NCBI GenBank assembly: GCA_964596145.1
Contig: CAZQSR010000001.1
Location: forward strand, 2,023 to 66,022
Length of the DNA: 64,000 nucleotides
Origin: an uncultured Ignavibacteriaceae bacterium
GTDB lineage: Bacteria; Bacteroidota; Ignavibacteria; Ignavibacteriales; Ignavibacteriaceae
Reading direction: 5' to 3'
In this document: piece by piece, positions 55,315-55,459 of the stretch
How the letters are laid out: every line of letters begins with the position of its first letter
How positions within the stretch are numbered: the stretch's first letter is position 1
Notes under the pieces: model-generated
Told to the model about the DNA's origin: nothing
The model's input: only the letters and a program-made list of their open reading frames with translations
The model's database searches: none
Translations under genes and position numbers: made by a program

Positions 55315-55459
55315 TCAGAGATGGTGGAAGTGGTAGACACGACGGAAAAGTTTTTTCTGTTATAATTTCCAAAAGGCTATATATCAGATACTTCTAAAAA
55401 TAACTGATGGAGTCCGTTGTACTGCAAAGTACGTCCAGGTTCAAGTCCTGGTCTCTGAA
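55315..55459 (+). tRNA. class II (long variable arm, A73) tRNA gene with its anticodon loop replaced by a 66-nt insert carrying motif copy 4; intron, split gene or pseudogene
   Basis: Acceptor TCAGAGA/TCTCTGA. D arm GTG-GAAGTGGTAGA-CAC. Anticodon stem ACGGA (55342-46) / TCCGT (55413-17). Variable arm GTACT-GCAA-AGTAC. T arm CCAGG-TTCAAGT-CCTGG. The insert is 55347-55412, and no canonical 7-nt loop with U33 can be reconstructed from its ends. Confidence 0.6.
55375..55395 (+). promoter_or_regulatory. 21-nt motif copy 4 (inside the interrupted tRNA)
   Basis: GGCTAT ATATCAGA TACTTCT. Confidence 0.55.

What the first reader, a model, noticed from the sequence alone, without database searches (positions are those of the whole stretch)
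55315..55459. Class II tRNA gene interrupted in the anticodon loop by a 66-nt insert that carries the promoter-like motif
Every tRNA element except the anticodon loop is intact: 7-bp acceptor, 3-bp D stem with a GG loop, 5-bp anticodon stem, 17-nt variable arm, perfect T arm and A73 (Leu/Tyr-type). Between ACGGA and TCCGT lie 66 nt. This insert contains a U-run hairpin (ACGGAAAAG-TTT-TTTCTGT, which competes with the anticodon stem) followed by motif copy 4.

No combination of the insert ends restores a 7-nt loop with U33. The insert is also far too short for a group I intron.

Possible explanations:
- a new kind of tRNA intron;
- a split tRNA whose halves are transcribed separately, with the 3' half from the internal motif;
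- deliberate production of tRNA halves or decoys;
- a dead gene hit by a motif-bearing element.
Basis: seen in the sequence. Interest (0 to 1): 0.7.

Follow-up and report, generated by a model that had tools for sequence, protein, structure and literature searches.

The report
tRNA mimic carrying a conserved RNA handle
A phage gene that looks like a leucine tRNA has its anticodon loop replaced by a small, highly conserved folded RNA "handle". The same handle frames dozens of other tRNA-like pieces in related phages, so this looks like a new family of tRNA-mimicking RNAs rather than a broken gene or a promoter.

Summary
Window 55315-55459 is a complete class II, Leu-type tRNA body split by 66 nt (ARAGORN -i finds it; default ARAGORN and Rfam miss it).

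The "promoter-like motif" is not a promoter. It is one strand of a covarying RNA module, here called the handle:
- P1, 4-6 bp
- internal loop CUA/AUU(U)
- P2, 9 bp
- single-stranded UACUUCU

At least 42 stand-alone handles in this phage clade enclose a variable cargo: permuted tRNAs, tRNA-likes with a tetraloop in place of the anticodon loop, minihelices, or hairpins. In the tRNA, the same handle sits in circularly permuted order, with P1 capped and P2 opening toward the anticodon stem. Fifteen interrupted tRNA-like genes in 12 related loci share this layout.

The cloverleaf across the insert covaries (16 of 24 pairs). The handle is identical among close relatives, while the would-be anticodon drifts (GGA, AAA, AGG, AGA, CCA, UAG).

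Best reading (about 0.45): a non-decoding tRNA mimic that keeps the handle as a binding platform. Its architecture resembles YrlA Y RNAs, but it fails the YrlA membership tests.

Main rival (about 0.22): a new protein-dependent tRNA intron. One relative encodes RtcB next to the cluster.

The dead-gene and split-promoter readings are rejected.

The parts
55315..55345 (+). 5' part of the tRNA body: acceptor 5' strand 55315-21, U8 G9, D arm 55324-40 (GTG / GAAGTGGTAGA / CAC, tRNA-Leu type), anticodon-stem 5' strand GACGG 55341-45
   Evidence: ARAGORN -i. Cloverleaf covariation in 7 homologues.
55346..55355 (+). J5 linker AAAAGTTTTT between the anticodon stem and the handle. Can alternatively pair in the U-run hairpin 55341-55361.
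55356..55364 (+). Handle P2, 3' strand (TCTGTTAT plus A)
   Evidence: Pairs 7/8 (plus the U-A closing pair) with 55380-55388. The same position in relatives covaries: TCTTTTAT, ACTTTTAA, ACATGTCT, AGAATTTT, GCTTTTAC and others. The intron alone folds this way.
55365..55379 (+). Handle core: internal-loop strand AUUU (55365-68), capped mini-P1 CC-AAAA-GG (55369-76), internal-loop strand CUA (55377-79)
   Evidence: The same conserved loop sequences (CTAT ... AATTT) occur in 42 stand-alone handles. P1 covaries there.
55380..55388 (+). Handle P2, 5' strand (T plus ATATCAGA)
55389..55395 (+). Invariant single-stranded motif TACTTCT (UACUUCU)
   Evidence: Present after P2 in every handle.
55396..55413 (+). 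J3 linker AAAAATAACTG plus the pseudo-anticodon loop ATGGAGT (55407-13). CTGATG can alternatively pair with TATCAG of P2.
   Evidence: The triplet varies among relatives: GGA, AAA, AGG, AGG. The alternative hairpin appears in the MFE fold but is absent in L112, L370 and L371.
55414..55459 (+). 3' part of the tRNA body: anticodon-stem 3' strand CCGTT 55414-18, long variable arm to 55434, T arm 55435-51, acceptor 3' strand 55452-58, discriminator A 55459 (no encoded CCA)
53199..53312 (+). Stand-alone handle. Cargo is a 74-nt tRNA-like in normal order ending CACCA.
53341..53410 (+). Stand-alone handle. The 31-nt cargo contains AGAAGU, complementary to the handle's own UACUUCU.
55210..55303 (+). 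Stand-alone handle. Cargo is a T arm (CTTGG-TTCGAAT-CCAAG) plus a GAAA-capped acceptor-like helix (tRNA top-half minihelix).
   Evidence: The hairpin covaries in L003, L004 and L374.
55466..55531 (+). Stand-alone handle with a 26-nt cargo. The orthologous handle in L004 and L374 holds an 87-nt circularly permuted tRNA.
55541..55610 (+). Stand-alone handle. Cargo includes the conserved GCC-GTGA-GGC hairpin.
56329..56389 (+). Stand-alone handle with a 21-nt cargo. The orthologue in L004 holds an 83-nt permuted tRNA.
56406..56478 (+). Stand-alone handle, 22 nt upstream of the ORF at 56500
51090..53198 (+). 702-aa ORF, always found upstream of the handle cluster in relatives. Helical N-terminal region plus a TerD-like C-terminal domain; not Ro60.
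55841..56287 (+). 148-aa ORF, directly downstream of the interrupted tRNA in this window and in most relatives. No known fold.

Best explanation
The locus encodes a tRNA-Leu-derived, non-decoding tRNA mimic. Its anticodon loop has been replaced by a conserved structured 'handle' of about 40 nt (55356-55395): P2 helix, CUA/AUUU internal loop, capped P1, and single-stranded UACUUCU.

It is one topological variant of a phage-specific family of handle-bearing RNAs:
- In stand-alone members, the 5' and 3' ends form P1 and P2 and the cargo sits inside. Cargoes are often circularly permuted or truncated tRNAs.
- In this locus, the ends lie at the acceptor stem and the handle is capped.

**Proposed mechanism (inferred).** The RNA is cut out of a polycistronic transcript by the tRNA end-processing enzymes. 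It folds into an L-shaped tRNA body with the handle projecting from the anticodon stem. The handle is kept as the binding site for a still unknown protein or RNA partner. The tRNA-like body engages tRNA-binding factors; LeuRS, for example, does not read the anticodon. This tether or decoy logic is that of bacterial YrlA Y RNAs.

**Shown:** the structure, its covariation, its permutations and its conservation pattern.
**Inferred:** that the handle is retained, that it has a binding partner, and what the biological role is.
For: 1. **The handle is a real RNA structure.** In 20 of 20 unbiased motif copies, N8 pairs 8/8 with a partner followed by AATTTC. RNAfold recovers P1, the loop and P2 in all 20 elements. 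In 42 handles, 11 of 13 pairs have double changes; covariation is 0.84 against 0.20 in shuffles (0/500) and about 0.1 when slid.
2. **The insert is the same handle, circularly permuted.** It reads TCTGTTAT-AATTT-CC-AAAA-GG-CTAT-ATATCAGA-TACTTCT. The intron alone, and the cloverleaf-constrained RNA, both fold into it. Fifteen interrupted tRNA-like genes in 12 loci show the same layout with compensatory changes in P2.
3. **The tRNA body is under selection across the insert**.
4. **The handle is the most conserved part.** It is 100% identical among the window, L374 and L004, while the exons differ.
5. **The would-be anticodon is not conserved.** It reads GGA, AAA, AGG, AGG in close relatives and CCA, AGA, UAG in more distant orthologues. 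Several have A34 and do not match the Leu body. Decoding is therefore not what is being selected.
6. **Many cargoes in the same handle cannot decode.** Examples are anticodon loops replaced by GAAA or GTGA tetraloops, bodies without an acceptor stem, D-arm-only cargoes, minihelices and small conserved hairpins. The handle also attaches at either the anticodon end or the acceptor end. A constant platform with variable cargo explains all of this.
7. **The Rfam YrlA model gives significant but sub-threshold matches.** Four of the six cover the full model. It hits six permuted members at 33.6-42.8 bits, E from 3.6e-6 to 1.7e-3. YrlA is described as a permuted-tRNA mimic on a protein-binding stem, often with class II-like variable arms (bioRxiv 10.1101/312249; PMC4201824).
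Against: - No binding partner has been identified. No Ro60/TROVE gene turned up in the window's ORFs that were scanned. The syntenic 702-aa protein is TerD-like, not Ro60. The 148-aa protein has no known fold.
- The handle lacks the YrlA GNCGAAN0-1G motif.
- Some relatives keep canonical anticodon loops that match the body. L375 15290-15426 is Leu-type with CUUAGAA. L375 7571-7695 has an intact CUCAUAA stem-loop with the handle at position 26/27. Some permuted members look like complete tRNAs, one with ACCA as the acceptor linker. One relative encodes RtcB next to the cluster. All of this fits removal of the handle.
- There are no expression data.
- The unconstrained MFE fold prefers two competing hairpins (-39.5 against -35.6 kcal/mol).
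Confidence: 0.45

Rival explanations
1. The handle is a new kind of protein-dependent tRNA intron and processing signal. An unknown endonuclease recognises the handle or the tRNA body. It cuts on both sides, and an RtcB-type ligase (from the phage or the host) joins the halves. Applied to the permuted members, the same reaction would circularise them before RNase P opens the acceptor end. This would be the bacterial-phage counterpart of archaeal and red-algal BHB introns and permuted tRNA genes.
For: - The topology is the same as in archaea and Cyanidioschyzon: one motif serves both as an intron and as a leader/trailer helix around permuted tRNAs.
- RtcB (PF01139) lies directly after the 148-aa gene, about 550 nt from the interrupted tRNA, in L372.
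- Several different tRNA bodies carry the insert.
- A canonical loop preceded by U33 sits right before the 3' stem strand in several members: AU-UUC-AA, AU-UCC-AA, AU-CCC-AA or AU-GUU-AA, UU-CUA-AA and CU-UAG-AA.
- L003's permuted tRNA has exactly A-CCA between its 3' and 5' ends.
- These phages recode TGA, so a delayed supply of special tRNAs would be useful to them.
Against: - For this locus, splicing would give a Leu-type body with anticodon GGA (AAA or AGG in near relatives). That would be mis-decoding tRNAs with unmodifiable A34.
- The distances from the handle to the would-be splice sites vary: J5 is 2-10 nt and J3 is 0-18 nt beyond the motif. No fixed cleavage geometry like BHB exists.
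- There is no bulge-helix-bulge motif.
- No EndA or ligase was found in the window.
- RtcB was seen in only one of about 12 neighbourhoods.
- Many cargoes could never become tRNAs.
Confidence: 0.22
2. The handles are processing and stability cassettes of a polycistronic early transcript. They would be leader/trailer stems cut by a host RNase such as RNase III or RNase E, or would protect ends. The copy inside the tRNA would be a tolerated or regulatory variant that yields tRNA halves.
For: - The handles sit in tandem between co-directional genes and next to two strong intrinsic terminators.
- Some enclose normal-order tRNA-likes, as leader/trailer stems do.
- One lies just upstream of an ORF.
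Against: - Generic RNase sites do not need an invariant UACUUCU and CUA/AUUU.
- Cutting inside the anticodon region would destroy a body that is clearly conserved by selection.
- This reading does not explain why permuted tRNA cargoes keep full cloverleaf pairing.
Confidence: 0.12
3. A split tRNA gene. The 5' half ends at a U-run terminator, the motif is a promoter, and the 3' half is transcribed separately.
For: - The motif precedes several small units and one ORF.
- A U-rich hairpin follows the 5' half.
Against: - The variable 8 nt inside the 'promoter' covary with a distal partner, which only makes sense in RNA.
- In the tRNA, the partner lies upstream of the motif, so both strands must be on one transcript.
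- The hairpin is not flagged as a terminator, whereas the two real terminators nearby are.
- All eight plus-strand matches to the motif pattern lie within 53.2-56.4 kb of the 64-kb window.
Confidence: 0.03
4. A pseudogene: a tRNA gene inactivated by insertion of a mobile motif-bearing element.
For: - The handle occurs in many copies and in several tRNA types, as a mobile element might.
- Near-repeats GAYGGA flank the insert.
Against: - The interrupted gene is conserved at the same syntenic position in relatives whose flanking proteins are only about 60-90% identical.
- It shows compensatory changes in all tRNA helices and in P2.
- Copies differ in stem sequence, so they are not recent transpositions.
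Confidence: 0.03

Closest known systems
YrlA-type bacterial Y RNAs (Rfam RF02553; Chen et al. 2014, PMC4201824; Wang et al. 2018, bioRxiv 10.1101/312249)
   Same: - Modular RNA: a stem with conserved internal loops, joined at the anticodon-stem position to a tRNA-like domain.
- That domain is effectively a circularly permuted tRNA with a closed acceptor stem.
- Long class II-like variable arms are common.
- M. smegmatis YrlA is even opened by RNase P and receives CCA.
- The family is found in phages and is linked to RtcB operons.
- The Rfam model matches six permuted members of this family with significant E-values.
   Different: - Scores are 33.6-42.8 bits against a gathering threshold of 69.
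- The conserved handle sequence (CUA/AUUU loop, UACUUCU) is unrelated to the Ro60-binding GNCGAAN0-1G motif.
- No Ro60/TROVE gene was found.
- Up to eight copies occur per phage, with very diverse cargoes.
- The member studied here is un-permuted, with its ends at the acceptor stem. It gives no YrlA hit and no Rfam tRNA hit in the window.
Archaeal and Cyanidioschyzon merolae BHB introns, split tRNA genes and permuted tRNA genes (EndA plus RtcB)
   Same: - One RNA motif appears both inside tRNA genes (as an intron at or near the anticodon loop, once at 26/27) and as the leader/trailer helix around circularly permuted tRNAs.
- An RtcB ligase gene lies next to the cluster in one relative.
   Different: - There is no bulge-helix-bulge geometry.
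- The conserved element lies away from the would-be splice sites, at variable distance.
- The hosts are bacteria-type (a tmRNA is present, and one relative is binned as a Bacteroidota MAG).
- No EndA was found.
- The anticodons of the orthologous group are not conserved.
tmRNA, one-piece and two-piece (permuted) forms
   Same: - A tRNA-like acceptor/T domain whose anticodon arm is replaced by a large structured insert.
- It exists in both standard and circularly permuted gene orders.
- The phage encodes a bona fide tmRNA (63132-63566).
   Different: - There is no mRNA-like reading frame or pseudoknots.
- A complete D arm and anticodon stem are kept.
- The body is Leu-type, not Ala-type.
Group I introns in bacterial and phage tRNA anticodon loops
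   Same: Interruption of a bacterial-type tRNA gene in the anticodon loop region.
   Different: - The insert is 61-66 nt against more than 200 nt for group I introns.
- There is no Intron_gpI match here, although the model does find a real group I intron in relative L371.
- No P1-P9 architecture is present.

Membership tests
YrlA / bacterial Y RNA | Reaches the Rfam RF02553 gathering score (69 bits) | tested here: not met
   The window shows no YrlA match even at E<=10. Permuted relatives score 33.6-42.8 bits, with E from 3.6e-6 to 1.7e-3.
YrlA / bacterial Y RNA | tRNA-like domain (T arm, D arm, acceptor-like stem) attached through its anticodon-stem side to a stem with conserved loops | tested here: met
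   In this locus the acceptor is open rather than closed.
YrlA / bacterial Y RNA | Ro60-binding motif GNCGAAN0-1G on the 5' strand of the stem (PMC4201824) | tested here: not met
   The handle consensus is GG-CUAU-N8-UACUUCU / N8'-AAUUU-CC. It contains no GNCGAA.
YrlA / bacterial Y RNA | Encoded next to an rsr (Ro60/TROVE) gene | tested here: not met
   Twenty window ORFs were scanned with Pfam and showed no TROVE domain. The structural-region ORFs were not scanned. The adjacent 702-aa protein models confidently (pLDDT 86.6) and matches only TerD folds. Precomputed Pfam lists for about 12 related neighbourhoods show no TROVE.
YrlA / bacterial Y RNA | Binds Ro60 in vivo | not testable with these tools
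   Needs immunoprecipitation or pull-down.
BHB-type (EndA-dependent) tRNA intron / permuted tRNA | Bulge-helix-bulge: two 3-nt bulges separated by a 4-bp helix at the splice sites | tested here: not met
   Folds show a 3x3-4 internal loop between P1 and P2. The junctions to the anticodon stem have variable length.
BHB-type (EndA-dependent) tRNA intron / permuted tRNA | Splicing restores a canonical, conserved anticodon loop that matches the tRNA identity | tested here: not met
   Triplets are GGA, AAA, AGG, AGG, CCA and AGA in Leu-type bodies. Only L375 has CUUAGAA.
BHB-type (EndA-dependent) tRNA intron / permuted tRNA | Splicing endonuclease and RtcB-type ligase available | tested here: inconclusive
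   None was found in the window. RtcB is adjacent in relative L372. Host enzymes are unknown.
Group I intron in tRNA | Group I catalytic core (Rfam RF00028) of more than 200 nt | tested here: not met
   The insert is 61-66 nt and gives no hit. The model works on L371.
Canonical tRNA gene | Cloverleaf with conserved D and T loops, kept by covariation | tested here: met
Canonical tRNA gene | Contiguous 7-nt anticodon loop with a conserved anticodon | tested here: not met
Phage or sigma-70 promoter (for the motif) | Conserved DNA sequence whose variable spacer has no long-range complementarity | tested here: not met
   The spacer pairs 8/8 with a distal partner in 20 of 20 copies and covaries.

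The most novel reading that the evidence does not exclude
Bacteriophages of bacteria carry a protein-dependent tRNA splicing and permutation system. The handle would be the recognition element of an unknown endonuclease, and RtcB (phage or host) would re-ligate. Intron-containing and circularly permuted tRNA genes, so far known only from archaea and a few algae, would then be matured in infected bacteria, possibly to time the supply of special tRNAs in a TGA-recoded phage.
Probability: 0.2. Interest if true: 0.92.

Novelty: new variant of a known kind. Interest (0 to 1): 0.76.

Why it matters
- It would add a widespread, previously undescribed class of structured phage RNAs. More than 50 elements were seen in 18 metagenomic or MAG loci.
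- The class uses tRNA shapes as interchangeable cargo on a constant handle, in three circular permutations.
- It extends the Y RNA/YrlA tRNA-mimic principle to a new, Ro60-independent handle.
- It gives annotators a rule for the many 'broken' or 'permuted' tRNAs that tRNA finders miss in phage genomes.
- It defines a concrete RNA bait (UACUUCU plus the CUA/AUUU loop) for finding the partner protein.
- If the handle turns out to be removed, this would be the first non-group-I tRNA splicing and the first permuted tRNA genes in the bacterial and phage world.
- Either way, it bears on how phages manipulate or evade the host's tRNA machinery.

Tried and rejected
**Searches that found no close relatives**
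- Megablast of 52-58 kb against INPHARED: no match.
- tblastn of the 148-aa protein against phages: none.
- The search for related loci with the 148-aa protein, and an exact search for the 3' exon in IMG/VR: nothing.

**Searches that gave mostly noise**
- A motif-only IMG/VR scan (14 specified bases) gave only single, chance-level hits.
- The gapped pattern in the metagenome and genome collections gave mostly chance hits and had to be filtered by the pairing test.
- A permissive scan for upstream partners was too noisy to use.

**Protein hypotheses**
- Ro60 hypothesis for the 702-aa neighbour: rejected. PDB sequence search was empty, and the AF2 model matches only TerD.
- Endonuclease, ligase or RNA-binding hypothesis for the 148-aa neighbour: no support. 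It has no Pfam, NCBIfam or PDB fold match.
- The 436-aa ORF is absent from close relative L374 and sits between terminase and portal in L005, so it is not tied to the RNAs.

**RNA hypotheses**
- Known ribozyme or other Rfam family for the handle: none, even at E<=10 on short stretches.
- A single splice rule giving a canonical loop in all members: none found. Cutting after UAC, after UACUUC or after UACUUCU was tried by hand on the sequences.
- Hairpin TATCAG/CTGATR as a conserved element: present only in the window-type orthologues, not in L112, L370 or L371.

Full report
**1. The observation**

Window 55315-55459 contains every part of a class II tRNA except a contiguous anticodon loop:
- a 7-bp acceptor stem (55315-21 / 55452-58) and A73 (55459)
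- a 3-bp D stem with the loop GAAGTGGTAGA, the bacterial tRNA-Leu pattern
- a 17-nt variable arm
- a canonical T arm

ACGGA and TCCGT are separated by exactly 66 nt. Default ARAGORN and the Rfam tRNA model do not report the gene. ARAGORN with introns allowed reports it with a 61-nt intron at 31/32, the stem GACGG/CCGTT and the loop AUGGAGU.

**2. It is not a dead gene**

Proteins flanking the locus led to related contigs from other metagenomes. In all, twelve other loci carry an interrupted tRNA-like gene of the same design: L003, L004, L112/L372/L373, L145, L209, L267, L370, L371, L374, L375 and L376. In most of them it lies just upstream of the homologue of the 148-aa ORF.

On an alignment of seven of these genes:
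- 96% of cloverleaf cells pair.
- 16 of 24 pairs carry compensatory double changes, including all 7 acceptor pairs and 3 pairs of the anticodon stem that spans the insert.
- 0 of 500 shuffles reach this, and slid controls drop to about 40% paired.

**3. The 'promoter-like motif' is half of an RNA structure**

The motif GCTAT-N8-TACTTCT occurs 8 times on the plus strand, all between 53.2 and 56.4 kb.

For every stand-alone copy in the window, L003 and L004 (20 of 20), the N8 finds a perfect 8/8 complement 15-87 nt downstream. That complement is always followed by AATTTC. The 4-6 nt before CTAT pair with the nucleotides after AATTT.

RNAfold recovers the same architecture in all 20 elements independently:
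- P1, 4-6 bp
- a 3 x 3-4 internal loop (CUA / AUU(U))
- P2, 9 bp
- single-stranded UACUUCU followed by a variable cargo

Evidence that this is an RNA structure:
- In 42 handles from 18 loci, 11 of 13 pairs show changes on both sides. The covariation score is 0.84 against 0.20 in shuffles (0/500) and about 0.1 when slid. That set was selected for pairing, so the unbiased test is.
- There are G-U pairs but no A-C pairs, and all copies are co-directional with the genes. The structure therefore forms in plus-strand RNA.
- No Rfam family matches the handle.

**4. The insert is the same handle in circularly permuted order**

The insert reads J5 - TCTGTTAT - AATTT - CC-AAAA-GG - CTAT - ATATCAGA - TACTTCT - J3. 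P1 is reduced to a capped 2-bp hairpin, and P2 opens toward the anticodon stem.

The intron sequence alone folds into this shape. So does the whole RNA once the cloverleaf is imposed: -35.6 kcal/mol, against -39.5 for an unconstrained fold that uses two competing hairpins.

Across the interrupted genes, P2 changes by compensation. Pairs seen (P2a/P2b):
- ATATCAGA/TCTGTTAT
- ATATAAGT/TCTTTTAT
- TTATTAGT/ACTTTTAA
- AGATATGT/ACATGTCT
- AATTTTCT/AGAATTTT
- GTATAAGC/GCTTTTAC
- GTGTAAGC/GCTTACCC

In the interrupted forms, P2 nearly always carries an internal mismatch or a U-G wobble, at positions 2-6 and most often a U-U at position 4. The last-listed pair has an A-C instead.

The host bodies differ (Leu-type class II, Glu-like and others). 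In one case the handle sits at position 26/27, beside an intact anticodon arm.

**5. What the cargoes are**

- Several stand-alone handles enclose complete circularly permuted tRNAs, in the order 3' half, short linker, 5' half. ARAGORN recognises them once the element is tandemly duplicated. Their acceptor stems covary between relatives.
- Others enclose normal-order tRNA-likes whose anticodon loop is a GNRA-type tetraloop, tRNA bodies lacking the acceptor stem, a lone D arm, a T-arm/acceptor minihelix (window 55210-55303), or small conserved hairpins.
- Orthologous handles can hold a full permuted tRNA in one phage and a remnant of 21-26 nt in the window phage.

**6. Comparison with known systems**

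*YrlA Y RNAs.* The Rfam YrlA model matches six permuted members, four of them over the full model. Scores are 33.6-42.8 bits with E from 3.6e-6 to 1.7e-3, all below the gathering score of 69. YrlA Y RNAs are exactly this kind of object: a permuted-tRNA mimic on a protein-binding stem. They often have class II-like variable arms, and in M. smegmatis the acceptor is opened by RNase P and receives CCA (PMC4201824; bioRxiv 10.1101/312249).

The defining features fail, however:
- There is no GNCGAAN0-1G motif.
- There is no Ro60/TROVE gene. The syntenic 702-aa protein models at pLDDT 86.6 and matches only TerD domains.
- There is no YrlA hit in the window.

*Archaeal and algal BHB system.* The topology is shared: the same motif appears as an intron and around permuted tRNAs. 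Relative L372 encodes RtcB directly beside the cluster. But there is no bulge-helix-bulge, the junction lengths vary, and no endonuclease is evident.

**7. Choosing between 'retained handle' and 'intron'**

For this locus, the evidence favours retention:
- The handle is identical in the window, L374 and L004, although their exons differ.
- The triplet that splicing would make the anticodon drifts: GGA, AAA, AGG, AGG, and then CCA, AGA, UAG in more distant orthologues. It often has A34 and never fits the Leu-type body, except in L375.
- Selection therefore acts on the body and the handle, not on decoding.
- A constant platform carrying variable tRNA-shaped cargo also explains the non-tRNA cargoes and the attachment at either end of the tRNA.

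I assign these confidences:
- about 0.45 to a non-decoding, handle-bearing tRNA mimic (tether or decoy logic, partner unknown)
- about 0.22 to a genuinely spliced intron
- about 0.12 to a processing cassette
- about 0.03 each to the split-promoter and pseudogene readings
- the remainder to something not yet conceived

**8. Context**

- The window covers most of an NCBI contig of about 67 kb from a phage with no close sequenced relative.
- TGA is read through in the late genes.
- It encodes a tRNA(UCA) and a tmRNA.
- It carries an NAD-salvage gene set.
- One relative is binned in a Puia (Bacteroidota) MAG.
- Searches of the literature held here found no report of permuted or handle-interrupted tRNA genes in phages.

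Noticed in passing
window 1-40000 (mostly minus strand) and 36261-36334 (-): Treating TGA as sense merges the late-gene ORFs into much longer ones (1712, 1439, 742 and 716 aa). A tRNA with anticodon UCA is encoded at 36261-36334. This is a TGA-recoded phage.
   Followed up: partly
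window 63132-63566 (+): A phage-encoded tmRNA (Rfam 66.5 bits). Relatives L003 (7730-8294) and L371 (3075-3491) also give tmRNA matches, at 29.1 and 36.7 bits, both below the gathering score of 47.
   Followed up: no
window 55611-55840 (+): A hairpin-rich spacer of about 230 nt upstream of the 148-aa ORF, about 90% conserved in L374. It ends in a weak tRNA-like (55734-55800) with a T arm CTGTG-TTCGATG-CGCAG and an 8-bp 'anticodon' stem carrying an 8-nt loop. It has no handle and matches no Rfam family.
   Followed up: no
window 53364-53394; L003 4511-4546; L004 720-754; L374 about 2122-2150: The cargo of the first handle after the 702-aa gene contains AGAAG(U/UA), complementary to the handle's own invariant UACUUCU. 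RNAfold pairs them. This may be a self-masked or regulatory member of the family.
   Followed up: no
window 55918-55937 (-), inside ORF 55841-56287: The 148-aa ORF carries AGAAGTATCTAA (codons for AEVSN), complementary to ...UUAGAUACUUCU of the neighbouring handles. GAAGTA is kept in relatives because the peptide is conserved. It could be chance or a pairing target.
   Followed up: no
L372 9817-11001: An RtcB RNA ligase gene lies directly downstream of the 148-aa homologue, beside the handle cluster and the interrupted tRNA (9143-9266). It was not seen in the other neighbourhoods examined or in the window.
   Followed up: partly
L369 2762-2816; L371 3480-3702: Related phages also carry a Pistol ribozyme (48.7 bits, above threshold). 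One has a group I intron (89 bits) whose start overlaps the 3' end of the tmRNA match by 12 nt.
   Followed up: no
window 51090-53198 (+): A 702-aa protein from a large unannotated family (more than 700 members). It is always upstream of the handle cluster. It has a helical N-terminal region plus a TerD-like C-terminal domain and a partial match to NF041916 (MXAN_6230/SCO0854 RING family). A PRTase-like ORF (48097-48678) and NAD-salvage genes lie nearby.
   Followed up: partly
window 55460 and the equivalent position in all interrupted homologues: The nucleotide after the discriminator is C in every interrupted gene except one of the two in L375 (8612-8733, T). It is followed by TT, GA, TA or AA, and never by an encoded CCA. 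This may be a 3'-processing signal.
   Followed up: no
window 53222-53295 (+): The cargo of the first handle is a 74-nt tRNA-like in normal gene order. It has a short D loop without GG, a T loop TTTAACT, a possible loop CTTACAA, and a 3' end CACCA. tRNA finders miss it.
   Followed up: partly
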